From: Thermodesulfobacteriota bacterium
GTDB taxonomy: Bacteria > Desulfobacterota > Desulfarculia > JACQYL01
Assembly: GCA_963675595.2 (NCBI GenBank)
Contig: CAXXLZ010000002.1
Span: 4,544,001 to 4,608,000 of the forward strand
Reading direction: 5' to 3'
Length of the DNA: 64,000 nt
Shown here: positions 47,597 to 58,379 of the stretch, piece after piece
Position numbering within the stretch: the stretch's first letter is position 1
Layout of the letters: each line of letters starts with the position of its first letter
The notes under the pieces: generated by a model
Databases searched by the model: none
The model's input: the letters and a program-made list of their open reading frames with translations, nothing else
What the model was told of the DNA's origin: nothing
Program-made: the position numbers and the translations under genes

Positions 47597-48003
47597 CGAT
47601 CCTCCCGGTAGATCGTTTTGTGGATGGCCGTTCTATTATCGGCCTTCCATACCATGCACGAAACCCGACTTTTATTGAAGACTCCCACCTTGGGTCCCCG
47701 GCTCCTCGTAGTTGGAACGGATGCGTCCCTCATGCCGTCGTCCTTCACCGGCCTTGGATGCGCGGCCTTTTCAACGAGGAAACAACACCAAGAACAGCTC
47801 TCCGAATCCCGACAAGCGTAGCCCATGATCCGGCCGACTTTCAAGCAATTACCGTTTGTTACGGAAGGGATCGTTCTATGCAAGGTCGGAACGGCGGCAC
47901 AAAAAGTGGGCTCGTCCGACGGCTTCTTTGAAAAATGCCGCGGCTTCTTATACACTTTGATGTGGAATTCATCCCGCGCCCCTTTTCAGGAATGGATACG
48001 TCC

Positions 48004-50703
48004 ATGTGTGAAAACCTCTTCAATCGAATCAAGGCAGTCAAGCCCGATTGTTTCGGAGCCGGCCGGCGATTGTTCGGTTTCCTGGTAAGGGGATGGGTGT
48101 ACGGGTTGATCCTTCTGGCGGTGGTTTCGGTTTCGGCGGGATCGCCGTCGAGTGCCGGTGCCGTCAACGGCGGCAAACACGATTCGACCCTCAAAGTACT
48201 GCCCGGAGAGCACGGAAGCGATCAAGGAAAGTCTTCGACAAAGGATGGAAGCACAGAGGCCAAGCCTGTGCGTTCCTCTTCGGAGAGCGAAGACCGAAAG
48301 CATGACGCAAGGTCGTTCGAAGCGACTCTCTCGGGTCAAGGGTGGGTGGACTTCTCGGGGGGCGGCTTTTCCCTGAAGAGCCTGAACGTGGATTTCGGCA
48401 GGTTCGGGGGGCTTACCGGAAGGCTGTCCGTGGAAGCGGGGCAAGCGCCCCAAGGCAAAGTCGATGCCCGTTTGTCGAAACCCGGCGAGCTCGTGGAGCT
48501 GTTTTCCTTCCTCATTCCCGAAGGGCTGCGGGGATTCTGCATGGATGGAGACATCCGAATTCTCGCGGAATGGGCGGATGATCCACCTCGAATGTCCGCC
48601 GAATTGAACTGCGACGGAGCACGGATCTTCCGTTCCTCCGACGGACTTGATGTTCGGTTCACGGGGAACGTCCGATGGACCCGCGCGCTTTCCGAGGACG
48701 GGGAATTCGATTTCAGGGTGGATGGTCGAGGTGATTTTCAGTGGCGAGATATCCGTTTGGCGGGTACGCGGATTTCGGGCAACTGGCGCCGAGAAGGTGG
48801 TGAAACGCGGCTGGAGCGGATGCGTCTGCAGATCGAACCGGAGAGAGTAACGTTTAAGGGGAAGCCTTTTCCTTTGGAGCGCGTCGATCTGGACACCGAT
48901 TTTCAACGACTTGAAAATGGCGCCGTGCGGGTTCGGCGTCTGATTTTTTCCGAAAAACAGTTGGGCGAGATCCAAGGGGCCTTCGTCGTGCATCCCCGAA
49001 CCTTGGAGGAAAGTTCCGGCTCTCTTCGAGCCGAGAACCTCGCGCTGGGTCGTGTCCTTCGCTGGATCGCCGCGATCACGGGGTGGGAGCTTGGTGGGGT
49101 GGAGGTCTCCGGGCGAGGCGATTTGGCCGTTCGTCTCATGCCGGACCGGAATAGTCGGAAGCTTTCCGCATCCCTGCGTTGGAAGGACCTGGCTTTCTCG
49201 TCCGCGGACGGCAACCTGATGGCGGAGGGCGCTCAAGGTGAAATCAGCGCTTCCCTTGGCCCGGGTACGGACAGGCCCTTTGCGATCGAAGCGAAGTCGT
49301 ACCGGGGGCAACTCCTGGCCGGCACCGTCTTCCTGGATTTGGCGAATGCTCCTTTCAGCTTCCGAGGAGCGGGAAATCTGTCCGCTCAGAGCTCAATGGA
49401 GGATTTCTCCGCCGAACTGAGCTTTGAGAAGCTGATCCGACTGAACCTGAGTCGTGCATCGTGCGGGAGGACGCCCGAAGGACTCAGGTATTCCGGTGAC
49501 CTGAGCATCAAGAATCCCGACCTGCCGAAGCTCCTGGACCTGCTGGTGAAACAACCCATGGCAATCAGCCGGCCCGGCGTCTCCGAATTGGAGGTCGGCG
49601 GAGACCTGGAACTCGGCTGCCGTTTTCAAGGAACACCGGAAAGCCTCAGGATTGTTGGGCGGTTGGACCTCAGCAATCTGAACGCTTCTTATCCCGCTTC
49701 GGAATTCTCCGCCCGGAACCTTCAACTGGAACTTCCCTTTCATTATGTTTTCGGGGGCTCGCCTGACGAGCCTCCCGAACTTCCGCCCGAGCGTTGGGGT
49801 AGACTGGCGTGCGACGAATTGAGCGTGGGTTCCCAGATCCGCATGCCCCTCCGTCTGTCCGTCGCCATGGTCCCGAACCTATTTTTGGTGAAAGAGGATC
49901 TCGACCTGCCCGTGATGGGCGGCAAAGTCATTTTGTCCCACATGGTAGTGAAGGAACCTCTCTCAAAAGGCTATGAGGCTTCCATGGCCGCACGGATCGA
50001 AAGTCTCGATCTCGCCCGATTCGGATCGGCGTCTTTTCCCCTGGAAGGGACTCTCAACGGAGACTTTCCCGCAACGAGCCTGAGCGCCAAGAAATTGCAG
50101 GCATTGGGTCGCGTATCCGGCCGGGTATTCGGAGGCGAATTGACGGCACGGAATTTCGAAATTGCGCGTCCCCTTTCCCAAGGGCGGGTCCTGGGAGTTG
50201 AAGAGGCCCGACTACGACTCGCGGATCTGGAACGCATGACCCAAGCCTTGCAGGTCGGCAAGGTTTTGGGTCGAGTAGACGCCCAATTACAGGGATTTCA
50301 GATGGCCTATGGTCAACCGGCGGCTTTTCAACTGAAGGTCGAATCCGTGCCTGTGGACGATGTTCCTCGCAAGATCAGCTTGGAGGCGGTGAATTCCATA
50401 TCCGTGGTGGGAACCGGGAGCGGTATCGGCAACGCGGGAGTCAATATATTCGCTTCGTTTTTTGATGAGTTCCGGTATCAGTCCATCGGAATTTCCTGCA
50501 GTCTCAAGAACGACGTTTTTCGTGTCCGAGGACTTATCCATGACGGGGGCGTCGAATATCTGGTTAAACGGCCTCCGCTGTTCGGTATCAATGTGATTAA
50601 CCGAAATCCCGATAACCGGATATCGTTTTCTGATATGATGGAACGGATCCGACGTATTCGAAGCGATTCCAAGAAGAAAGGAGCGACCGATGAAAAGGAA
50701 TAA
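48004..50703 (+). CDS. YdbH/AsmA-like bridge-type lipid transfer protein (start uncertain, 47935-48004)
   Basis: N-terminal TM, beta-rich; C-terminal ISLEAVNSI..G, F.Y..IG..C.L.ND; upstream of YdbL. Confidence 0.7.
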   Translation: MCENLFNRIKAVKPDCFGAGRRLFGFLVRGWVYGLILLAVVSVSAGSPSSAGAVNGGKHDSTLKVLPGEHGSDQGKSSTKDGSTEAKPVRSSSESEDRKHDARSFEATLSGQGWVDFSGGGFSLKSLNVDFGRFGGLTGRLSVEAGQAPQGKVDARLSKPGELVELFSFLIPEGLRGFCMDGDIRILAEWADDPPRMSAELNCDGARIFRSSDGLDVRFTGNVRWTRALSEDGEFDFRVDGRGDFQWRDIRLAGTRISGNWRREGGETRLERMRLQIEPERVTFKGKPFPLERVDLDTDFQRLENGAVRVRRLIFSEKQLGEIQGAFVVHPRTLEESSGSLRAENLALGRVLRWIAAITGWELGGVEVSGRGDLAVRLMPDRNSRKLSASLRWKDLAFSSADGNLMAEGAQGEISASLGPGTDRPFAIEAKSYRGQLLAGTVFLDLANAPFSFRGAGNLSAQSSMEDFSAELSFEKLIRLNLSRASCGRTPEGLRYSGDLSIKNPDLPKLLDLLVKQPMAISRPGVSELEVGGDLELGCRFQGTPESLRIVGRLDLSNLNASYPASEFSARNLQLELPFHYVFGGSPDEPPELPPERWGRLACDELSVGSQIRMPLRLSVAMVPNLFLVKEDLDLPVMGGKVILSHMVVKEPLSKGYEASMAARIESLDLARFGSASFPLEGTLNGDFPATSLSAKKLQALGRVSGRVFGGELTARNFEIARPLSQGRVLGVEEARLRLADLERMTQALQVGKVLGRVDAQLQGFQMAYGQPAAFQLKVESVPVDDVPRKISLEAVNSISVVGTGSGIGNAGVNIFASFFDEFRYQSIGISCSLKNDVFRVRGLIHDGGVEYLVKRPPLFGINVINRNPDNRISFSDMMERIRRIRSDSKKKGATDEKE

Positions 50704-51283
50704 ATGGCTGTTCATGGGACTGGCGGCCCTGCTCGCGGCCTGTGTTACGGTGAATATTTATTTCCCCGCGGCGGAGGTGGAACGCGCGGCGGACAAGATC
50801 GTGGACGATGTGTATGGAGTGAAGCCCACGGGAAACGGTGACGAAAAGGGAAAACCCGATGGACCTTCCCAAGGATCCTTGATACGGCTTCTGGCCGAGT
50901 TCCTGGAACCTGCGGACGCCCATGCTCAGGAGGCCGTTAGTGTAAGCAATGCGACGATTCGGGGGCTCAAGAATCAACTTGGGGAGAACCACAGGCAACT
51001 GAGGCCATTTTACGATCAGGGTAATGTGGGGATCGATCGGAACGGGTACCTTGTCCTTCGTGACACCCAAGGCCTGCCGCTTCAGCAGCTCGCCCTGCTC
51101 AAGCGTCTCGTGAACGAAGACAATAGTCTCAGGAAACAACTTTACAGGGAAGTCGCCAAGGCTTTGAACGTTGCTTCAGACCAAGTAGACCGTATCGAAG
51201 CGATCTTCGCCGGACACTGGAGGCAAAAAGCCTTATCCGGGTGGTGGGTCCAGCGGGACGACGGTTCCTGGGTCCGCAATTAA
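50690..51283 (+). CDS. lipoprotein with YnbE-like N-terminus and YdbL (DUF1318) domain
   Basis: LAACVTVNIYFP; EDNSLRKQLY, GWWVQ..DG.W. Confidence 0.78.
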   Translation: MKRNKWLFMGLAALLAACVTVNIYFPAAEVERAADKIVDDVYGVKPTGNGDEKGKPDGPSQGSLIRLLAEFLEPADAHAQEAVSVSNATIRGLKNQLGENHRQLRPFYDQGNVGIDRNGYLVLRDTQGLPLQQLALLKRLVNEDNSLRKQLYREVAKALNVASDQVDRIEAIFAGHWRQKALSGWWVQRDDGSWVRN

Positions 51284-51585
51284 CACGGGGTTGCGTAAAT
51301 GGAATACCGGGGGTGCGGACGACCCAGCGTGCCCGGGATATTCCGGAAAACTCCTGCGCATGGTGGTAACGTCCGCGGGGGAGTGCCCGGGTTGGATCGA
51401 GAGGAGGCTCTGCGGGTGTTTGCGCGCCGTTGCCTTTTTCCCAAAGGTGACCAAGTTCCGCATATGCACATCGGTGCATATCCGCATCGGTCCACCAAAT
51501 CCGGGGGCGTTGGAATGCCCTCCGCCTTGCCGGGGAGCCTTCCAAGGACGGAGTGTTTACGGACTCAACCAAGCTTGATGGGACC

Positions 51586-52848
51586 ATGTATCTCTTTCTG
51601 ATCTCTTTTCTCATCACATACGGAACTCTTCATTTATACTTTTACAGGAACTTCGTTCGTTCTCGACCTCGGAGGTTCAAGGGGCGACGTGCGTTGGTCG
51701 TCGCCTTGATCATAGGGGTCTTCTCTCCGGTATTGGTCAACCTCTCCCTTCGCTTGGAAAACCGTCTTCTGACCCAGTGCCTCGCCTATGCCGGCTACCT
51801 TTGGATGGCCGGGCTGTTTCTGCACTGCTGCCTGTATGCTTGTTACGACACGCTCCGGTTTTCCACGAGAGCGTTGTCGACGTTTTTTTCCGGGGTAAAG
51901 GGGATCGGCAACCATAACGGCCTGTTCCCGGTCGTATCTTTGACGGTGGTCTGTATCCTGGGCTTTGGGGGATTCGAAGCCCGGCACATTCGTAAGGAAA
52001 CCGTGCGTCTGGAAACCTCGAAACTGCCGCCGGGCGTGGATCGTATTCGTATCGTCCAGGTATCCGATATTCATTTCAGCACGATCAACAACGAATATTT
52101 CGCCGAAGAAGTTGCCGGGCTTCTGAAGAGTCTGAATCCGGATATACTGGTTTCCACGGGTGATCTGATCGACCGGGGCTTATTCGATCGGCGGCGTGTC
52201 GCCGATTTGTTACGGAATTTGGAGACCCCCCTGGGAAAATATGCCGTTGCTGGAAATCATGAGTTCTATGCCGGGCTTGACGACGCCTTGAATTTCACGG
52301 AAAGGGCCGGGTTCAGGGTCTTGCGGAACGAGGCGGTTCGGGTTCATGGTCTTGTGACCGTGGTGGGGGTGGACGATCCGGCCGGAGCCCGCATGGGTCT
52401 GCCTCCGCCCGATGAAAAAGGGGCTTTTTCGGAGGTGCGCGGGGATCTGTACACCTTGCTGCTGAAGCATCGGCCGCGGGTGAATTCCGACACTGTCGGG
52501 CGGTTTGATCTGCAGCTTTCCGGACACACCCACGACGGCCAGATCTTCCCATTCAAGCTTGTTACCGCGATCTTCTATCCTTACATCCGAGGCTTCTTCA
52601 GTTTGGCCGAAGGGGGGGCGCTCTACGTGAGCCGAGGCACCGGCACCTTCGGCCCGCCGGTTCGGTTCCTGGCGCCGCCCGAGGTGACGGTCATAGACCT
52701 GGAGACCGTTCAGGCGGGGGCCGCATCTCGCGACGGGAGTCACGCATGGGGGCGGAGCGTGAGCTTGGATCGAAGGTCCATGAAATCGCGTAAGGAAGGC
52801 CTGTTTGGGACCGGGGACCATCCTGCTTCATCGAACCCGCCACAATGA
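51586..52848 (+). CDS. membrane-anchored metallophosphoesterase
   Basis: SDIH, TGD, GNHE, SGHTHDGQ, SRGTG. Confidence 0.9.
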   Translation: MYLFLISFLITYGTLHLYFYRNFVRSRPRRFKGRRALVVALIIGVFSPVLVNLSLRLENRLLTQCLAYAGYLWMAGLFLHCCLYACYDTLRFSTRALSTFFSGVKGIGNHNGLFPVVSLTVVCILGFGGFEARHIRKETVRLETSKLPPGVDRIRIVQVSDIHFSTINNEYFAEEVAGLLKSLNPDILVSTGDLIDRGLFDRRRVADLLRNLETPLGKYAVAGNHEFYAGLDDALNFTERAGFRVLRNEAVRVHGLVTVVGVDDPAGARMGLPPPDEKGAFSEVRGDLYTLLLKHRPRVNSDTVGRFDLQLSGHTHDGQIFPFKLVTAIFYPYIRGFFSLAEGGALYVSRGTGTFGPPVRFLAPPEVTVIDLETVQAGAASRDGSHAWGRSVSLDRRSMKSRKEGLFGTGDHPASSNPPQ

Positions 52849-52885
52849 TTCACGATTCACCACATCGCACGGGCGCTTCTTCAAA

Positions 52886-54166
52886 TTACTTCTCGGATGG
52901 GAAAACGACCCCCAACACCTGATCGATTCTCCTGAGTGAGCCCAGAACGAGCCGTCGCCGGACCGGTTCCAGAGCTCCCCTGCGCGCGGCATCCGCCAAC
53001 CCGGAGACTTCCTCGAGGAGACCGTCGAAGGCTCCCCGCACGTCGAGATCATCGTTCATGGCGTTCTCGAAAACATCGAGCAGCGAGGTCGCTTCAGGAC
53101 AAGTCGTCTCCTCCGGGAGAGAATCGGGCTCTTCGATGCCGGCAGAGAGGATATCCACCAACCCCCTGAAATCGTCCAGTTTCTTCGCCGCCCCCTCGAG
53201 TCCCTTGCCGGTTAGGTTCTTTCGGGACCTGTAGTGTCCATAAATCAAGAAGAATCTCAGGTGCTCGGGACGGTATCCGTTCTTGGTGAAATCCTCGATG
53301 TAGACGATGTTTCCCTTGCTCTTGGACATCTTGGCGCCGTCAACGAGCAGATGCTCGCCATGAAGCCAGAACCGGGAGAAGGTTCGCTTTGAGAGCGCTT
53401 CCATTACGGCGATGGTGTAGTCGTGGTGACGGAAAAGGTTGTCCACCCCGCCGCACGCCACGTCGATCTCGAAACCCAGATATTCGGCGATGATGGCTGG
53501 ATCCTGGATGTTCCAGGAGGGCCTCCCTCTGCCGATGGAGGTGTCCCAAGCGGGTTCCCCGACCTTGGCGGAGCCGTGCCACAAAATGAAATCGCCCAGG
53601 TTCCATCGTTGTCCGGGATACGTGTCCTTGCGAAATCGGACTTTTTTCTTGGGCCAGCGAGACATGTCCAACCCAAAAAGTTTACCGAATCCCTCGAATT
53701 TCAGAGGGTCAAAAAAAATGTCCCCTTGGTGACGGTAGGCGTAACCTTCATCCATGAGCCTTTGGACCAAGCGAGCGGCTTCCTGGACGTTTGTGGAGGC
53801 TCGGTGAATCAAGCCGGGCAGTTGAATCCTCAGGCGGGAACTTTCCTCAAAGAATTTTTCTTCGACGGGGTCGACCAATTCCCGAACGGAAAGGCTCTTC
53901 TCCTTGGCTTCGGCAATAGCTTTGTCCTCAACGTCCGTGAAATTGATGACGCGATGTACCCGGTATCCAAGGTACTCGAGGTACCGTTGGAGGACATCTT
54001 CGAAAAGGAAGGTTCGATAGTTGCCCAGGTGCGGCCTGCGGTACACGGAAGGGCCGCAGGTGAACATTTTTACCGAATTGTCCTCTCTAGGGGAGAAGAG
54101 TTCCTTGGTTCGCGTCAGGGTGTTGTTCAGTCGGAGTGAAGGCCTCCGGGAGTCCGGATTCAGCAT
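52886..54166 (-). CDS. cysteinyl-tRNA synthetase-like protein (divergent class I paralogue)
   Basis: CGPSVY, HLGN, NFTDVEDK, DFILW, KMSKS present; GWHIEC and HHENE motifs altered; C-terminus short. Confidence 0.85.
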   Translation of the reverse strand: MLNPDSRRPSLRLNNTLTRTKELFSPREDNSVKMFTCGPSVYRRPHLGNYRTFLFEDVLQRYLEYLGYRVHRVINFTDVEDKAIAEAKEKSLSVRELVDPVEEKFFEESSRLRIQLPGLIHRASTNVQEAARLVQRLMDEGYAYRHQGDIFFDPLKFEGFGKLFGLDMSRWPKKKVRFRKDTYPGQRWNLGDFILWHGSAKVGEPAWDTSIGRGRPSWNIQDPAIIAEYLGFEIDVACGGVDNLFRHHDYTIAVMEALSKRTFSRFWLHGEHLLVDGAKMSKSKGNIVYIEDFTKNGYRPEHLRFFLIYGHYRSRKNLTGKGLEGAAKKLDDFRGLVDILSAGIEEPDSLPEETTCPEATSLLDVFENAMNDDLDVRGAFDGLLEEVSGLADAARRGALEPVRRRLVLGSLRRIDQVLGVVFPSEK

Positions 54167-54221
54167 GGTTGCTCCTCATGGAGTTTGACGATGGAAATCT
54201 ATGAAACGGAGCGCCGGCTCA

Positions 54222-54381
54222 ACAGTCCGTTTAAAAGGTCCGATTATTGCGGGCCGGTGGAAAACGATGACACGCTGGGCGCCCAAATCCCGTACAACGA
54301 GCAATACATCCAAGTGCGTCGCAGTGACGTGACGAGAGATGCGGCGCAATGAGGTAGATCGCGCCTGTATCAGTCCGTCAA
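54222..54381. repeat. degenerate second copy of the 505-655 element (inverted)
   Basis: Collinear blocks CCGTT.AAAAGG.CCG, GGCCGG, AAACGAT, GGCGC.CAA.TCCCG, TACAT, CAGTGACG, GATCGCG. Confidence 0.6.
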
Positions 54382-54775
54382 CACGGCCTTGGTGAAAGCC
54401 CCACCGGATTCGACGCCTGCCGCAAGTGAAAACCGCGAGAGGATGTCTTGACGTTGATGGGTAAGAAGCCCTCCGAAAAAGATTGACCACCAGTTTAGCA
54501 TACTCCCGCCGTCATGCCAGTACTTCTATGTTGGGACGTCGAATACGAGCCTCCGGTGTTAAGCACATGAACCGAGGTCGAGCCTGCGATGCACGCGTTC
54601 GGCCCGTTTCCTCAACCGACCCGGTTGCACGCGGCGGAATCCTGATCTGTTTGCTTCGAGTACAGGTTTAAGAGGCCGGATATCCGTTGGATACCCGATA
54701 TCTTCTCCGCTCGGTGTGCGTTAATTTGCAATCTATCGAAAAAGTTGATTCGTTGCCGTGAGAAAGGAAAGGGTT

Positions 54776-54967
54776 ATGCCGATTTATTCCTATGCTTGTC
54801 CGAACTGCGGATTGGAAGAGAGCCGTATCGCCGGAGTGGACGACCGTACCGTGAAATGCACCGGATGTGATCAAGATATGCGTCGAATGACCTCCGATGA
54901 GGATTTGTTTCGGGCCTACTGGGAAACCAGCGATTCCCGAATTGGACGACGGATGGAGAAAAACTGA
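54776..54967 (+). CDS. FmdB-family zinc ribbon protein
   Basis: MPIYSYACPNCG...CTGC; AAAGGA RBS. Confidence 0.8.
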   Translation: MPIYSYACPNCGLEESRIAGVDDRTVKCTGCDQDMRRMTSDEDLFRAYWETSDSRIGRRMEKN

Positions 54968-55163
54968 GGATATCCACGCACGGCCGGCCATAATTTCTTC
55001 CACGATTGCATCGTGATCTCCCATGATTAAAATTTTTGTGAGGGCGATGCCCTTAAGAATGCGCTTCGTTCATACGGCGGAGCCGCAGAAGAGCTAGCCG
55101 ATCCGCCTCTGTGCGGTCGGCTGTGAGTGCTGAACGGTTACATCGAGAAAGGAGGTCGTTCAA

Positions 55164-55613
55164 ATGACGGTACCATCCATCAAGAAAAGGAGACCTTTCT
55201 GGATGACGCCCTTCGGAAGGGAGCCATGGGGAGATCTTTGGACCGATCGTTTGTGGCCGGAATGGCCGAGATACGGCGGCGACGAGTTCATACCGGTTTC
55301 CAACTTCTATGAGAAAGACGGCAAGTTTTTTCTGACCGCCGAACTCCCCGGTGTGAAACGGGAGGATATCGGCATCGATATCGACAGCAACGTGGTGACC
55401 ATCTCCGGTAAGCGCCAGTCGGAAAAGGAAGAAGAAGGAGCGGACTACTATTTGAAGGAATCGGCCTACGGTTCTTTTTCCAAGTCTTACCGTCTGCCTG
55501 CGGAGATCGAGGAGGACAAGGTCGAGGCGACGTTCAAGGACGGAGTCCTGAAGGTCGTCATGCCGCATAAGGAAGCGCCGACAAGAAAGAAAATCGAGAT
55601 TACCGAGAAATAG
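55164..55613 (+). CDS. Hsp20/alpha-crystallin small heat-shock protein
   Basis: AELPGV, YGSFSKSYRLP, ATFKDGVL; AGGAGG RBS. Confidence 0.94.
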   Translation: MTVPSIKKRRPFWMTPFGREPWGDLWTDRLWPEWPRYGGDEFIPVSNFYEKDGKFFLTAELPGVKREDIGIDIDSNVVTISGKRQSEKEEEGADYYLKESAYGSFSKSYRLPAEIEEDKVEATFKDGVLKVVMPHKEAPTRKKIEITEK

Positions 55614-55616
55614 ATG

Positions 55617-55646
55617 CATTCCGCCGGGCTGAAGCCCGGCGGAATG
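55617..55646. repeat. perfect intergenic hairpin (REP-like or RNA-stabilising)
   Basis: CATTCCGCCGGGCT-GA-AGCCCGGCGGAATG; no U-tract. Confidence 0.55.
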
Positions 55647-55688
55647 GTCGTCCCCCATGAATTCGTAAGATAAGGAAGGAGTCGCTTC

Positions 55689-55874
55689 ATGAAGGTAAAG
55701 GTGGACGCGAATGTATGTGCAGGCACGGGCAATTGCGAAGCTACCTGCCCAAAGGTATTCGAAGTGAAGGGAGGCGTTTCGCAGGTGATCGCCGACCCGG
55801 TACCCCGGGATCAGGAAGATTGTGCTCGTTCCGCCGTGGATGGGTGCCCCACGGGTGCCATCTCCATTGTTTAG
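55689..55874 (+). CDS. single-cluster ferredoxin (3Fe-4S type)
   Basis: CAGTGNCEATCP ... CPTGAI; AAGGAG RBS. Confidence 0.88.
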   Translation: MKVKVDANVCAGTGNCEATCPKVFEVKGGVSQVIADPVPRDQEDCARSAVDGCPTGAISIV

Positions 55875-56207
55875 GCGTCCGGCCTTGAAGCGTTTCCCCT
55901 CCTTTTGATGGATTCAAAGACTCTTTCAGATCAATGGTGTATGTAGTCCCGGGGGGGGCGTCCCCCCAATCACCCCTCCGTGCTCTCTCCCTTTCTGTTT
56001 CACCCAAAGTAACGCCGCAAAAGCTTCCGCTGTTTTCAGGAGACCGAGTAACCATGGAGGTACCGGCCACCACTTTGACAGTGTGTGCGCGATGCATCAC
56101 AATGCTATGAGGATGTGCACGAATTCGGTTCTTGGTCGATTTCCCGCTCGGTGGGGGAGCACCGCTCCATCCAAGAGGGCGGATTGAGGCCCTGGGAGGG
56201 CGCCGTC

Positions 56208-57590
56208 ATGGCCGAAGCTTCAAAAATGACTCCAAAGACCGACGCCACTACCGAGGCCATCCTGGAAAGCATTTCGGATGGTGTTTTCACGGTGGACTCG
56301 GAGTGGCGCATTACCTCGTTCAATCGAGCGGCCGAGCAGATCACCGGAGTGGCGCGCTCCGACGCTCTGGGACGTCGCTGTTCGGAGGTGTTTCGTTCCA
56401 ACATGTGCACGACGGCCTGCGCGCTGCATGAAACATTGAAGACGGGCAAGCCGATCATCGGTAAATCCGGATTCATCATCGATTCGGAAGGAGAACGGAT
56501 TCCCATCAGCGTTTCCACGGCGGTGCTGCGAAATGCTCGAGGACAGGTCATCGGGGGAGCCGAGACCTTCCGCGATTTGAGCGAAATCGAGGCCTTGCGC
56601 AGAGAACTGGAAGGCCGGTTCCGCGTGGGCGACCTTGTAAGTCATAGTCCCTTGATGCAGAGAGTGTTCGAGGTGCTGCCCGCCGTGGCGGTGAGCCCGA
56701 GTACGGTGCTGATCCTGGGAGAGACCGGCACCGGCAAGGAATTGGTGGCCAGGACCATCCACGATCTGAGCACCCGCAGGGAAGGTCCGTTTGTGGCCGT
56801 GAACTGCGGTGCGCTTCCGGACACGCTTCTTGAATCCGAACTTTTCGGGTACAAGGCCGGAGCCTTTACGGGAGCCGGCAAAGACAAGCCCGGGCGTTTC
56901 GCGTTGGCTCAAGGGGGCACCCTCTTGCTGGATGAAATCGGCGAGGTCAGTCCCGCACTTCAGGTAAGACTCCTCCGAGTGTTGCAGGAACACAAATATG
57001 AACCGCTGGGCTCCGTTCGATCCGAGAATTCCGACGCCCGCATCATTGCGGCCACGAACAAAGACTTGTCGGAACAGGTGCGCAAAAGGGAATTTCGAGA
57101 AGACCTGTACTACCGGGTAAACGTAGTCAGGATCGAACTGCCCCCGCTGCGACGCCGAAAAGAGGATATTCCCCTCTTGGTGGAGGAGTTCATCAAACGC
57201 TTCAATCGACTGCAGGGGAAGTCCGTGGAAGGAGTATCATCCGAGGCCTTCTCTCTGCTGATGGCGCACGACTGGCCCGGAAATGTGCGTGAATTGGAAA
57301 ACGCCGTGGAGCGAGCCTTCGTGCTGTGCAAAGAAGGTTTGATCTCCGTCTCCCATCTTCCCGAGGAACTGACCGCCCACGGCGCGGTCTTGTCTCCCTC
57401 CTCCCAAATCCGTGCGGCCCATGATCTTCTGGATGCCCAGGCCATCCGCACTGCATTGGAGCGGAACCATTACAACCGCACCGCGGCGGCGAGAGAGCTG
57501 GGAATTCATAAGACTACGCTTTTTCGCAGGATCAAGAAGCTGGGCCTCACCCTGCCTCATGCGGATGGGCGTTCGACACACAGAGAGTAG
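56208..57590 (+). CDS. sigma-54-dependent activator, PAS-AAA+-Fis HTH (OrpR-like)
   Basis: PAS with Cx8Cx3C, GETGTGKE, GAFTGA, WPGNVREL, HTH. Confidence 0.92.
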   Translation: MAEASKMTPKTDATTEAILESISDGVFTVDSEWRITSFNRAAEQITGVARSDALGRRCSEVFRSNMCTTACALHETLKTGKPIIGKSGFIIDSEGERIPISVSTAVLRNARGQVIGGAETFRDLSEIEALRRELEGRFRVGDLVSHSPLMQRVFEVLPAVAVSPSTVLILGETGTGKELVARTIHDLSTRREGPFVAVNCGALPDTLLESELFGYKAGAFTGAGKDKPGRFALAQGGTLLLDEIGEVSPALQVRLLRVLQEHKYEPLGSVRSENSDARIIAATNKDLSEQVRKREFREDLYYRVNVVRIELPPLRRRKEDIPLLVEEFIKRFNRLQGKSVEGVSSEAFSLLMAHDWPGNVRELENAVERAFVLCKEGLISVSHLPEELTAHGAVLSPSSQIRAAHDLLDAQAIRTALERNHYNRTAAARELGIHKTTLFRRIKKLGLTLPHADGRSTHRE

Positions 57591-57635
57591 CGTTATTGCT
57601 ACCATGAAGTGCTCATTAAGTAGCGGAAATGCTAC
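57587..57635. promoter_or_regulatory. two palindromic upstream activator sites GTAGC-N6-GCTAC
   Basis: GTAGCGTTATTGCTAC (57587-57602) and GTAGCGGAAATGCTAC (57620-57635), 33 bp apart. Confidence 0.72.
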
Positions 57636-57719
57636 TAATGGTCCCCCCTCGTTCCCCTGCCGATAGGAAAATTATCATCTAATTCCATGGGTTGTCAGCT
57701 TCTATGTGCTCTTCCGGCG

Positions 57720-57736
57720 CCGGCACAATAAATGCT
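57720..57736 (+). promoter_or_regulatory. sigma-54 (-24/-12) promoter
   Basis: CCGGCAC-AATAA-ATGCT; GG-N10-GC spacing; downstream of the activator gene and UAS. Confidence 0.78.
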
Positions 57737-57770
57737 TCATAAGAAGGCATCATTCGGAAGGAGCGACGGG

Positions 57771-58379
57771 ATGACGACAGCGGCGTTTGCGGCCTGGAAA
57801 AATCGAGTGGCACCGGTCTTCGACGTGATTGAGGAGATTCATCTCGTGGAGGCACAAGCGGGACGAATCCTTCGGGAGACCAGAGAGTCGGCGGCGGCGT
57901 CCCTACCGGTGGAACGGGTACTGCGTCTTGTGCAACTGCGCGTGGATACGTTGGTGTGCGGGGCGATCTCCAGGGGCCTGCACGCCATGATCGCCGCTTA
58001 CGGCATCCGGGTCATCCCCTTCGTCGCCGGTGATCTGAACAAAGTGATTCACGCTTGGCTGGGGGGGAAGTTGGAGTCTCCGGCCTTTGCCATGCCGGGT
58101 TGTTTTGGGCGAGGTCCTCGCCGGCTCAGGCCCAAGAACGGCAACCGTGGGGAGGAACATTTCATGATCGGGAAAAAAGGAACGGGAAGCGGCCAGGGGG
58201 GCGGACGCGGCCAAGGCGCGGGAGGTCAAGGAATGGGCCGAATGGGAGGTCGCATGGCGGCCGGTCCGTGCGGTTTCTGTGTGTGTGCGCAATGTGGCCG
58301 CAAAGAACCCCACAAACGGGGCGTACCTTGTCAAGAATTACGGTGCTCGGAGTGCGGCGCCGTAATGGTCAGAGAATAA
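57771..58379 (+). CDS. NifB/NifX-family (dinitrogenase FeMo-co-binding) protein with Gly-rich, Cys-rich tail
   Basis: RVAPVFD, LVCGAIS, MPGC; tail CVCAQC..HKRGVPC...CSEC. Confidence 0.82.
   Translation: MTTAAFAAWKNRVAPVFDVIEEIHLVEAQAGRILRETRESAAASLPVERVLRLVQLRVDTLVCGAISRGLHAMIAAYGIRVIPFVAGDLNKVIHAWLGGKLESPAFAMPGCFGRGPRRLRPKNGNRGEEHFMIGKKGTGSGQGGGRGQGAGGQGMGRMGGRMAAGPCGFCVCAQCGRKEPHKRGVPCQELRCSECGAVMVRE

What the first reader, a model, noticed from the sequence alone, without database searches (positions are those of the whole stretch)
52886..54166. CysRS paralogue with a rebuilt substrate pocket and no anticodon tail: candidate non-translational ligase
Seen: the ATP-binding signatures are intact (HLGN, KMSKS). 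The canonical GRPGWHIECSAM reads GRPSWNIQDPAI, and DIHGGG.DL.FPHHENE reads DVACGGVDNLFRHHDYT. The protein stops seven residues after 'QVLG' at 426 aa. Established: E. coli CysRS binds cysteine through a Zn held by C28, C209, H234 and E238, and MshC is a shortened CysRS paralogue that ligates Cys to a small molecule while keeping the Cys/Cys/His Zn site. By eye alignment the changes here are C209->D, E238->T, H206->N and H224->A. Inference: changes concentrated in the pocket of an intact ORF point to an enzyme that adenylates a different substrate or uses another metal, for a non-tRNA acceptor. An automated pipeline would probably call it cysS.
Basis: partly seen in the sequence, partly recalled or inferred. 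Interest (0 to 1): 0.82.

Follow-up and report, generated by a model that had tools for sequence, protein, structure and literature searches.

The report
Conserved tail-less CysRS-like ligase family
This gene is an extra, well-conserved relative of the enzyme that loads cysteine onto tRNA, with a rebuilt substrate pocket, a rebuilt and strongly basic acceptor-binding loop and no anticodon-reading tail, so it probably does a still unknown ligation job rather than ordinary translation.

Summary
Window 52886..54166 (-) is an intact 426-aa CysRS-fold protein. It scores below the cysS cut-off (303.6 vs 340 bits). It keeps HxGN, KMSKS and C28/H234, but has C209->D, E238->T, H206->N and H224->A, and it lacks the C-terminal anticodon domain. 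It is not decay. It belongs to a well-supported clade (SH-aLRT 99) of about 415-aa proteins. In 125 members D222, R246, H247, H248, D249 and Y250 are invariant, and dN/dS is 0.09-0.29. Relatives were found at 581 places in 185,579 species genomes, in anaerobic Thermodesulfobacteriota, Spirochaetota, Nitrospirota and several archaeal phyla. It is always an extra copy: the own genome has a canonical cysS, and 14 of 15 other holders have a canonical CysRS or a SepRS. A second cluster of family-specific residues rebuilds the tRNA-binding CP loop, whose net charge is +6 against -1. No conserved neighbour, tRNA, selB* or fusion points to a partner. Two cautions apply. Asp at position 209 also occurs in 120 of 120 apparently ordinary Patescibacteria CysRS. 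The basic loop also argues for an RNA-like acceptor rather than 'non-tRNA'. The substrate and the acceptor remain unknown. I found no description of this family in the paper searches.

The parts
52886..54166 (-). Whole ORF, 426 aa: CysRS-fold class I ligase paralogue (P0001), stop codon included
   Evidence: AF2 model pLDDT 92.6; Foldseek top hits are CysRS structures, TM 0.83
54056..54058 (-). Cys37, equivalent to E. coli C28 (metal ligand), invariant in the family and in other CysRS
54020..54031 (-). HLGN (the HIGH signature; the HxGN form is common in CysRS)
53933..53938 (-). Thr77-Asp78 (E. coli T68 region, alpha-amino group binding), invariant in the family and in other CysRS. Coordinates computed from the ORF start, not checked by translation (my check used wrong numbers)
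   Evidence: role from the MshC passage in PMC9736012
53591..53686 (-). Residues 161-192, GKLFGLDMSRWPKKKVRFRKDTYPGQRWNLGD: rebuilt, basic CP/'lasso' loop with family-specific W171, P172, F178, T182, G185, R187, W188, L190, G191
   Evidence: the lasso is called tRNA-binding in PMC10810186 (passage)
53501..53515 (-). WNIQD (canonical WHIEC): H206->N, E208->Q, C209->D
53414..53458 (-). ACGGVDNLFRHHDYT (canonical HxGGxDLxFPHHENE): H224->A, P233->R, H234 kept, E236->D, N237->Y, E238->T
53318..53332 (-). KMSKS loop, intact
52889..53179 (-). Residues 330-426: helical bundle retained (FENAMNDDLDV motif). The protein ends where the C-terminal anticodon-binding alpha/beta domain of CysRS would start
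   Evidence: no downstream ORF could supply the domain, because a convergent gene ends at 52848

Best explanation
The ORF encodes a working member of a distinct, conserved clade of CysRS-derived class I ligases. It acts beside the housekeeping Cys-tRNA route, not in place of it.

Shown:
- The ATP and alpha-amino-acid binding core is intact.
- There are two family-specific, invariant sets of changes, one in the side-chain/metal pocket and one in the CP 'lasso' loop that binds the tRNA acceptor end in CysRS.
- The anticodon-reading tail is lost.
- The family is under purifying selection.
- It co-occurs with a canonical CysRS or a SepRS.

Inferred mechanism:
- It binds ATP and an L-alpha-amino acid. 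The side chain sits on a re-ligated metal site of Cys37, Asp222 and His247. The Glu ligand is replaced by Thr/Asn, and Asn219, Gln221, Arg246 and Tyr250 line the pocket.
- It forms the aminoacyl-adenylate.
- It passes the aminoacyl group to an acceptor that is recognised by the strongly basic rebuilt CP loop, not by an anticodon.

My odds:
- About 0.85 that it is a functional, non-housekeeping ligase.
- Given that, the activated amino acid is cysteine or a close thiol analogue at about 0.5 and another polar amino acid at about 0.4.
- The acceptor is an RNA (a tRNA acceptor arm read without its anticodon, or a modified nucleoside as with GluQRS) at about 0.45, and a small molecule as with MshC at about 0.3.
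For: Core: PF01406 2.3e-76. 70 positions are shared-invariant with other CysRS, including C37, G38, H46, G48, T77, D78, K82, W218, G239, G240, D242, H247, H248 and KMSKS.

Fold: AF2 pLDDT 92.6; best PDB matches are CysRS, TM 0.83.

Family: 120 listed homologues at 55-61% identity and 407-498 aa. The clade has SH-aLRT 99 in a 75-row tree.

Signature in 125 members: D222, R246, H247, H248, D249 and Y250 in 125 of 125; N219 and Q221 at 0.99; T or N at 251 in 125 of 125 against E in 127 of 128 others.

Selection: dN/dS 0.088-0.286 in the 40 pairs printed, of 54 pairs with at least 70% identity.

Extra copy: the own genome has cysS at 565 bits. A canonical CysRS is over the cut-off in 12 of 15 other holders. 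SepRS (709 and 708 bits) is present in 2 of the 3 exceptions.

Acceptor side: 14 of the 25 family-specific invariant positions lie in residues 154-194. Loop net charge has a median of +6 (IQR 5-7) in 125 members against -1 (-2 to 1) in 125 others.

A three-ligand Zn site (Cys, Cys, His plus the substrate thiol) suffices in MshC (PMC9736012, passage).
Against: There is no biochemical datum, and no partner gene, tRNA or fusion to name the acceptor.

I could not read the coordinates of the model, so the geometry of C37, D222, H247 and C238 is not tested.

A basic loop is also compatible with a phosphorylated or acidic small molecule.

I obtained no evidence that this gene is transcribed (see Tried and rejected).

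One Bathyarchaeia assembly (G045, 1.9 Mb) showed neither a canonical CysRS nor a SepRS. That could mean the paralogue can serve as CysRS there, although the four other Bathyarchaeia assemblies have a canonical copy.
Confidence: 0.45

Rival explanations
1. It is an MshC-like small-molecule ligase. It adenylates cysteine (or another amino acid) and joins it to an amine or hydroxyl of a metabolite, for example in making an undescribed low-molecular-weight thiol of strict anaerobes.
For: It has the same architecture as MshC: a CysRS core plus helical bundle and no C-terminal anticodon domain. The conserved aromatic residues in the rebuilt loop (W171, F178, W188, and Y183) would suit a sugar. mshC-type genes need not be clustered with their pathway (recalled). 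Thiol-peroxidase-type neighbours occur in some lineages. AhpC/TSA lies 9 bp upstream in 4 Bathyarchaeia loci, and an OsmC-hydrolase lies in the Syntrophobacteraceae synteny block. Among the 139 adjacent ORFs, AhpC was seen 4 times and rubrerythrin 3 times.
Against: It is not of the MshC lineage. TIGR03447 scores 186.8 bits against a cut-off of 485.1. The family profile scores 194 bits on MshC against 230-330 on CysRS. The Cys/Cys/His triad of MshC is not kept. The loop is strongly basic, which is more usual for RNA binding. No glycosyltransferase or deacetylase partner recurs. The redox neighbours are few and lineage-bound.
Confidence: 0.25
2. It is a second genuine Cys-tRNA(Cys) synthetase. 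It would be a 'mini' form that ignores the anticodon and carries an altered metal site, used under particular conditions such as zinc scarcity in sulfidic habitats.
For: Asp replaces C209 in 120 of 120 full-length Patescibacteria-type CysRS, so an Asp ligand is compatible with apparently normal CysRS. A CysRS without its anticodon domain still worked, though less well, in Mukai et al. (PMC5389517, passage). Zur-regulated extra CysRS copies exist in proteobacteria (PMC2770081, passage). One assembly shows only the paralogue. All holders named in the record titles are anaerobes of sediments and similar habitats.
Against: E238, conserved in 127 of 128 other CysRS, is lost, and H206, E208 and H224 are changed as well. 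The acceptor-binding loop is rebuilt rather than kept. The Zur-linked paralogues keep their zinc residues. The gene is kept in two Methanomicrobiales assemblies that make Cys-tRNA through SepRS and show no CysRS at all. It is rare: 11 of 401 genomes sampled in its own phylum.
Confidence: 0.15
3. It is the CysRS* of Mukai et al. That is an anticodon-domain-less CysRS dedicated to a selC*-type tRNA-Cys(UCA), which puts Cys at UGA together with a second SelB (SelB*).
For: It shares the loss of the anticodon domain and the changes in the CP region, and it occurs in Desulfobacterales and Syntrophobacterales as CysRS* does (PMC5389517, passages).
Against: CysRS* lies downstream of selC*-selB*. Here 60 family loci held only 2 tRNA genes, Pro and Met, both more than 2 kb from the gene. 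Rfam found nothing in 7 Desulfobacterales loci or around the window gene. The own genome has one SelB over the cut-off and one tRNA-Sec. The 'PTVS' CP1 motif reported for CysRS* is not at that place in any of the 256 aligned sequences. I could not see the paper's supplementary alignment, which would settle this.
Confidence: 0.03
4. It is a non-catalytic relic or a pseudo-enzyme.
For: At least one offshoot inside the clade is degenerate: P0185 has Ser for C37 and RMTAR for KMSKS. No transcript evidence was obtained.
Against: All ATP and amino-group motifs are invariant in 125 members. dN/dS is 0.09-0.29. The reading frame is intact across phyla.
Confidence: 0.05

Closest known systems
Canonical cysteinyl-tRNA synthetase (CysRS; TIGR00435; E. 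coli 1li5/1u0b)
   Same: Same fold (TM 0.83). 31-34% identity to solved CysRS. HxGN, KMSKS, C28, T68, W205, H234, H235 and the GGxD motif are kept, and so is the helical bundle.
   Different: Below the family cut-off (303.6 vs 340 bits). C209->D, E238->T/N, H206->N, E208->Q, N237->Y, P233->R. H224 is not conserved. The CP loop is rebuilt and basic. The C-terminal anticodon domain is absent. It is always an additional gene.
MshC (Cys:GlcN-Ins ligase of mycothiol synthesis; TIGR03447; 3c8z/8hfm)
   Same: A CysRS-derived ligase of about 410 aa without the anticodon tail. It is a precedent for a three-ligand zinc site and for a non-tRNA acceptor.
   Different: A separate lineage (186.8 vs cut-off 485.1 bits; 194 bits with the family profile). 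MshC keeps Cys/Cys/His (PMC9736012 passage). MshC is actinobacterial; this family was found in anaerobic Thermodesulfobacteriota, Spirochaetota, Nitrospirota and archaea.
CysRS* (cysS*) of the selC*-selB* system, Mukai et al., Nucleic Acids Res 2016/2017 (PMC5389517)
   Same: An extra CysRS copy without the anticodon domain and with altered CP1, in deltaproteobacterial sulfate reducers.
   Different: No linkage to selC* or selB*. No 'PTVS' CP1 motif. The cysteine/zinc pocket is changed here, whereas the authors mimicked CysRS* with a normal pocket. Only passages of the paper were read, and its supplementary alignment was not available.
GluQRS/YadB (a truncated GluRS that glutamylates queuosine in tRNA-Asp)
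   Same: A class I synthetase paralogue that lost its anticodon domain yet still acts on RNA. It is usually a stand-alone gene. This is an analogy of working mode only (table in PMC9437257).
   Different: A different parent family (GluRS). No modified nucleoside carrying cysteine is known to me (recalled).
Patescibacteria/Saccharimonadales-type CysRS with Asp at the C209 position (seen here)
   Same: C209->D (GRPGWH[IV]EDT in 120 of 120).
   Different: Those proteins are full length with the CysS_C domain in most listed rows. They keep H206, E208, H224, H234 and E238, and they sit inside the ordinary CysRS part of the tree.
Zur-regulated CysRS paralogues of gamma/beta-proteobacteria (Haas et al. 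2009, PMC2770081)
   Same: An extra CysRS copy possibly tied to metal supply.
   Different: Those keep the zinc-binding residues (passage). No Zur or zinc-uptake context was seen here.

Membership tests
Canonical CysRS (cysS, TIGR00435) | Score at or above the curated cut-off of the equivalog model | tested here: not met
   303.6 bits against a cut-off of 340. Family members in other genomes score 271-337 bits and are all flagged 'no'.
   C37 and H247 are kept. D222 and T251 replace C209 and E238. The same holds in 125 of 125 members.
Canonical CysRS (cysS, TIGR00435) | C-terminal anticodon-binding domain (Pfam CysS_C, PF23493) | tested here: not met
   No match. The protein ends 7 residues after QVLG. 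Family median length is 419 aa against 479.
Canonical CysRS (cysS, TIGR00435) | HIGH and KMSKS ATP signatures | tested here: met
   HLGN and KMSKS are present and invariant in the family.
Canonical CysRS (cysS, TIGR00435) | It charges tRNA-Cys and is the cell's Cys-tRNA source | not testable with these tools
   Indirect evidence only. Another route (canonical CysRS or SepRS) is present in G000 and in 14 of 15 other holders.
MshC (TIGR03447) | Score at or above the curated cut-off | tested here: not met
   186.8 bits against 485.1.
MshC (TIGR03447) | Cys/Cys/His zinc triad (C43, C231, H256 in M. smegmatis) | tested here: not met
   The triad is taken from the PMC9736012 passage. Here it is Cys/Asp/His.
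MshC (TIGR03447) | Ligates Cys to GlcN-Ins within the mshA/B/D pathway of Actinobacteria | not tested
   All holders named in the record titles are non-actinobacterial. I did not search for mshA/B/D.
CysRS* (Mukai et al., PMC5389517) | Gene lies downstream of selC* tRNA-Cys(UCA) and selB* | tested here: not met
   No adjacent tRNA in 60 loci or in the window. No Rfam match. One SelB in G000.
CysRS* (Mukai et al., PMC5389517) | Lacks the anticodon-binding domain | tested here: met
CysRS* (Mukai et al., PMC5389517) | CP1 motif 'PTVS' in place of 'MSGA' | tested here: not met
   The family has L-x-G-L (LFGL in the window) at that place. The only 'PTVS' in the 256 sequences lies elsewhere, in P0261. 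The placing of the motif rests on my alignment, because the paper's supplementary figure was not seen.
New clade 'WNxQD / RHHDY' CysRS-like ligases (defined here) | W-N-[IV]-Q-D and R-H-H-D-Y-[TN] motifs, a basic CP loop with W171-P172, about 415 aa, no CysS_C domain | tested here: met
   The window protein lies inside the clade.

The most novel reading that the evidence does not exclude
The family is a previously unrecognised aminoacyl ligase that has changed both substrates. It would activate an amino acid other than the one its ancestor used (or cysteine on a new Cys/Asp/His metal site). It would attach that amino acid to an RNA without reading an anticodon, for example to a modified nucleoside or to a non-tRNA RNA. 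That would make it a cysteine-branch counterpart of GluQRS, spread among strict anaerobes of both domains.
Probability: 0.3. Interest if true: 0.8.

Novelty: new variant of a known kind. Interest (0 to 1): 0.6.

Why it matters
Synthetase paralogues that lost their anticodon domain have repeatedly turned out to carry unexpected chemistry. Examples are MshC in mycothiol synthesis, GluQRS in tRNA modification, PoxA in EF-P modification and CysRS* in UGA recoding.

This clade is large: 581 matching places in 185,579 species genomes. It is old enough to be monophyletic within phyla, strongly constrained, and present in Bacteria and Archaea. Pfam and NCBIfam have no model that separates it from cysS, and JGI annotation calls it cysteinyl-tRNA synthetase.

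Working out its two substrates would either add a new RNA or metabolite aminoacylation to anaerobe biology, or show how a CysRS can work with a different metal site. A practical gain would be a family model that stops these genes being counted as cysS in genome annotation and in aaRS census work.

Tried and rejected
Pyrrolysine link: rejected. The own genome has a tRNA-Pyl(CUA) and a PylS C-terminal domain. PylS is over the cut-off in 7 of 41 relatives, and 6 of those lack the family. G002, which has the family, lacks PylS.

Phosphoserine (SepRS/SepCysS) link: rejected. Neither is over the cut-off in any of 7 holders tested. SepRS is present in the two Methanomicrobiales holders.

selC*/selB* link: rejected.

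Conserved neighbours: none found.
- I clustered all ORFs in 80 loci plus the window. The only recurrent block was a Syntrophobacteraceae synteny: dsrAB-like, CobB/CobQ-like, DsrC, OsmC-hydrolase, HPF-CSD and CNNM/CorC, then the gene, in 13-22 of 80 loci.
- The 139 adjacent ORFs scanned fell into 107 Pfam families. The top ones were CNNM/CorC 15-16, response regulators 6 and PRAI 5.
- I had 153 adjacent ORFs. I dropped 13 that were over 700 aa and one with a bad coordinate.

Fusions: a search among longer proteins found none at E<=1e-60. The tool itself calls this weak evidence.

Defence systems: no PADLOC match.

RNA elements: no Rfam match at E<=0.1 in window 50000-58000. The sigma-54 promoter pattern had one match in the window, far from the gene, against 3.2 expected by chance. 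The promoter and terminator scans were at chance level.

Expression: one metatranscriptome (X13) laid on 52700-55700 covered the neighbouring Hsp20 gene (55049-55581, about 95% alike). In the target gene it gave only a 34-base piece that runs on into unlike sequence. This gives no information on transcription of the target.

Short CysRS-like forms with a normal pocket (P0137 type): a search of 401 genomes of the phylum found no close relative; the best was 43-47% identical. I could not examine their context.

The distances between C37, D222, C238 and H247 were therefore not measured. Cys at position 238 is not unique to the family, since 19 of 128 other CysRS have it.

MshC in the tree: no MshC sequence was obtainable as a session protein. 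The comparison with MshC rests on HMM and PDB scores only.

Complex prediction was not used, because there is no candidate partner protein.

Rows dropped:
- Proteins under 380 aa were left out of the 256-row alignment: 16 of 270.
- P0126 (a deletion across the WNIQD motif), P0185 and P0224 were left out of the two groups compared. In one search, P0126 and P0185 were left out, and P0224 was counted in the SHORT group.
- The family group of 125 was defined by hit rank (P0001-P0123 of at least 380 aa without P0126, plus P0127 and P0130), not by motif.

Paper searches behind the statement that I found no description of this family: which returned nothing. These cover open-access full text only. 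Supplements were closed.

Papers: I read only search listings and 'find' passages, never whole texts. The papers were PMC9437257, PMC5388404, PMC5389517, PMC8762117, PMC9736012, PMC5424206, PMC2770081, PMC5428304, PMC10810186 and PMC11580382.

The E. coli zinc-ligand set and the CysRS-tRNA contacts are recalled, not taken from a call.
Full report
WHAT IS THERE

Window 52886..54166 on the minus strand is an intact ATG-started ORF of 426 aa. A GGAG lies six bases upstream of the ATG. The gene is bracketed by plus-strand genes. A metallophosphoesterase ends 37 bp beyond its stop. An Hsp20 gene and a sigma-54 activator lie upstream. It therefore looks monocistronic.

Pfam sees the CysRS catalytic domain (PF01406, 2.3e-76, residues 24-326). 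It sees neither DALR_2 nor the CysS_C anticodon domain. The NCBIfam cysS model scores 303.6 bits, under its cut-off of 340. The MshC model scores 186.8 bits against 485.1.

- C28, W205, H234 and H235 are kept (C37, W218, H247, H248).
- H206->N219, E208->Q221, C209->D222, H224->A237, E236->D249, N237->Y250, E238->T251.

The protein ends seven residues after QVLG, where the C-terminal alpha/beta anticodon domain of CysRS would begin. An AlphaFold2 model built on 41 homologues is confident (pLDDT 92.6, pTM 0.92). Its best structural matches are CysRS entries (TM 0.83), ahead of MshC.

IT IS A PARALOGUE, NOT THE CELL'S CysRS

The window's own genome (6.79 Mb, 3 contigs) holds three CysRS-like genes:
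- a canonical one at 565 bits;
- a 777-aa fusion of a PLP-dependent cysteine-synthase-like domain with a full CysRS (418.8 bits);
- this gene.

Fifteen other genomes that hold a family member were tested. Twelve have a canonical CysRS over the cut-off (4 of 5, 5 of 5 and 3 of 5). Two of the three exceptions are small Methanomicrobiales assemblies. They have SepRS at 709 and 708 bits, so they make Cys-tRNA by the indirect route. The last exception is a 1.9-Mb Bathyarchaeia assembly with neither. The four other Bathyarchaeia assemblies have a canonical copy.

IT IS A CONSERVED FAMILY, NOT DECAY

A search of 5.8 billion proteins listed 120 homologues at 55-61% identity and 407-498 aa. JGI names them 'cysteinyl-tRNA synthetase'. 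NCBI mostly names them 'class I tRNA ligase family protein'.

I aligned 256 sequences: those 120, the 50%-identity representatives of at least 380 aa, and the genome's two other copies. The family members carry W-N-[IV]-Q-D and x-C-G-G-x-D-N-x-[YF]-R-H-H-D-Y-[TN]. The others carry WHIEC and H-x-G-G-x-D-[LN]-x-F-P-H-H-E-N-E.

In 125 family rows against 128 others (rows dropped are listed under Tried and rejected):
- 70 positions are invariant in both groups. They include C37, G38, the HxG of HIGH, T77, D78, K82, W218, the GGxD motif, H247, H248 and KMSKS.
- 25 positions are invariant in the family (at least 90%) and rare elsewhere (at most 10%).

Position by position:
- D222, R246, D249 and Y250 are in 125 of 125 members.
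- N219 and Q221 are at 0.99.
- Position 251 is T (64) or N (61), where the others have E in 127 of 128.
- Position 237 is H in 125 of 128 others but is free in the family (A 49, S 36, C 28, H 7).

A quick maximum-likelihood tree of 75 rows puts the family in one clade (SH-aLRT 99). A branch of equal support separates it from all other CysRS.

Pairwise Nei-Gojobori dN/dS was computed for the 54 pairs with at least 70% identity among 80 genes. It was 0.088-0.286 in the 40 pairs printed. The second refutation test, 'unconserved pocket, dN/dS near 1', also fails.

WHERE IT OCCURS

Pattern scanning of one genome per species (185,579 species) matched 591 stretches. Of these, 581 encode a relative. 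The best 80 come from:
- Syntrophobacteraceae (21);
- Desulfobacterales and their families (about 25);
- Spirochaetaceae (7);
- Bathyarchaeia (5);
- Desulfohalobiaceae (4);
- Methanomicrobiales (2);
- single Thermoplasmata, Hadarchaeota and Nitrospiraceae records.

In an even sample of the window's own phylum the family was found in 11 of 401 genomes. Among 40 closer relatives it was found in one, G002 at 59% identity. A FastTree of the 80 genes keeps phyla together. Spirochaetota, Bathyarchaeota and Methanomicrobiales each need one change. The archaeal lines lie next to the root set by canonical CysRS (FastTree, so weak). The gene is thus rare and patchy, but stably inherited where present.

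THE TWO REBUILT SURFACES

The 25 family-specific positions fall into two groups.

The first group is the side-chain pocket: F35, S40, N219, Q221, D222, R246, D249 and Y250.

It is the CP insertion: P154, L155, F160, M168, W171, P172, F178, T182, G185, R187, W188, L190, G191 and I194. This segment reads GKLFGLDMSRWPKKKVRFRKDTYPGQRWNLGD in the window. It corresponds to the CysRS-specific 'lasso', which a published survey lists as tRNA-binding (PMC10810186, passage). Its net charge has a median of +6 (IQR 5-7) in 125 family members, against -1 (-2 to 1) in 125 other CysRS. Over the whole aligned protein the figures are +6 against -10.

WHAT THIS SAYS ABOUT MECHANISM

Shown: everything needed to bind ATP and the alpha-amino and carboxyl part of an L-amino acid is kept and constrained. 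In MshC the residues that hold the amino group are T46, T83 and the G44 carbonyl (PMC9736012 passage). Their counterparts here are invariant: S40 (by my alignment), T77 and G38.

Inferred:
- A metal site probably persists, because C37, D222 and H247 are all invariant.
- MshC needs only three protein ligands plus the substrate thiol (same passage).
- The loss of the Glu ligand and the new Asn, Gln, Arg and Tyr residues mean that the site is chemically different.
- This is compatible with cysteine on a new site, or with another polar amino acid.

One control cuts against reading too much into C209->D. All 120 of 120 proteins found with the 'WHIEDT' type query carry GRPGWH[IV]EDT and PHHEAE. They are full length, mostly with the CysS_C domain, and NCBI names them cysteine--tRNA ligase of Patescibacteria/Saccharimonadales. 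That they are the only CysRS of those small genomes is my assumption, not tested.

On the acceptor side three things changed together: the tail was lost, the acceptor-end loop was rebuilt, and the charge switched. This points to a new way of holding a polyanionic acceptor. I therefore rank an RNA acceptor read without its anticodon above a small molecule.

WHAT IT IS NOT

It is not MshC, by score and by triad.

It is not the CysRS* of Mukai et al., as far as I can test. That gene follows selC* and selB*, and its CP1 motif is PTVS (PMC5389517 passages). Here:
- 60 family loci hold only two unrelated tRNA genes;
- the window holds none;
- Rfam finds nothing in seven Desulfobacterales loci or around the gene;
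- the genome has one SelB and one tRNA-Sec;
- PTVS is not at that place in any aligned sequence.
The paper's supplementary alignment, which I could not open, would settle this.

It is not tied to pyrrolysine or to the SepRS/SepCysS route.

No neighbour recurs across lineages. No long fusion was found. No defence-system model matches.

COMPARISON WITH WHAT IS KNOWN, AND NOVELTY

In working mode the closest precedents are the anticodon-domain-less synthetase paralogues: MshC, CysRS* and GluQRS. In descent the family is a sister clade of CysRS.

None of the paper searches I ran returned a description of a CysRS-like family with these motifs. A 2022 review table lists only CysRS* and MshC as CysRS paralogues (PMC9437257 passage). 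Those searches cover open-access full text only.

I file the family as a new variant of a known kind: a distinct, uncharacterised aaRS-like ligase family.

VERDICT

It is a real, constrained, extra CysRS-derived ligase with a changed pocket and no tail. A changed amino acid or metal is plausible but unproven. The acceptor is at least as likely to be RNA as not.

Interest is 0.6. This is a good, testable lead for people who study synthetase paralogues, but it has no partner gene to guide the test.

Noticed in passing
own genome, outside the window: G000:C1, locus L002:1471-3801 (-), protein P0390: A 777-aa fusion of a PLP-dependent cysteine-synthase-like domain (PALP, 1.8e-73) with a full-length CysRS (PF01406, DALR_2, CysS_C). 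It scores 418.8 bits on the cysS model. Its HIGH place reads NLGT and its KMSKS reads KMSRS. CysRS-like matches in open frames of 767-1181 aa occur in 21 of the 41 related genomes searched, but only this one was checked for domains.
   Followed up: partly
own genome, outside the window: G000:C2:125847-125918 and C2:161682-162401: ARAGORN calls a tRNA-Pyl (CUA), and a PylS C-terminal domain scores 297.6 bits (cut-off 178). The genome thus seems to encode pyrrolysine. PylS is over the cut-off in 7 of 41 related genomes. There is no link to the CysRS-like family.
   Followed up: partly
proteins P0223, P0271-P0389 (not in the window): All 120 of 120 CysRS of the Patescibacteria/Saccharimonadales type carry Asp in place of the zinc ligand C209 (GRPGWH[IV]EDT) and PHHEAE. 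A whole lineage of apparently ordinary CysRS may therefore use a Cys/Asp/His/Glu site.
   Followed up: partly
proteins P0137, P0139, P0141, P0224 (not in the window): Other short (405-413 aa) CysRS-like proteins lack the tail. Three of the four (P0137, P0139, P0141) keep the normal Cys/His/Glu pocket; P0224 keeps the Cys and His but has Thr at the Glu place. All four are extremely basic (net charge about +32 to +43 over the aligned part) and have a basic CP loop. They lie outside the family clade. No close relative turned up in 401 genomes of the window's phylum.
   Followed up: partly
protein P0185 (not in the window): A long-branch member inside the family clade has lost the catalytic signatures (Ser for C37, RMTAR for KMSKS, the RHHDY region degenerate). 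It may be a decayed or non-catalytic offshoot.
   Followed up: no
window 54758-54967 (+): A small ORF of 69 aa with two CxxC pairs sits in the 1-kb gap between the target and Hsp20. It matches Pfam Zn_ribbon_8 at 33.4 bits, just under the cut-off of 34.4, and is probably a small zinc-ribbon protein gene. The 104-aa ORF at 54176-54490 (-), directly upstream of the target, has no family and no counterpart in other loci.
   Followed up: partly
window 55049-55581 (+), Hsp20 gene 55164-55613: Contigs of a sediment metatranscriptome (run X13) about 95% alike cover the Hsp20 gene. A relative's Hsp20 therefore stands in an RNA library. Nothing comparable covers the target gene.
   Followed up: no
window 47935-51283 (+): A 922-aa ORF without any Pfam match at E<=0.001 is followed, with overlap, by a DUF1318 protein (50690-51283).
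   Followed up: no
loci L021, L025, L028, L032, L039, L048, L053, L064, L073, L080, L085, L094, L097: In Syntrophobacteraceae-type loci the family gene ends a conserved block. In order, the block holds two sulfite-reductase-like genes, a CobB/CobQ-like amidotransferase, DsrC, an OsmC-hydrolase fusion, an HPF-cold-shock-domain fusion and a CNNM/CorC transporter. This looks like lineage synteny rather than a functional operon, but the gene's closeness to dsr genes may deserve a look.
   Followed up: partly
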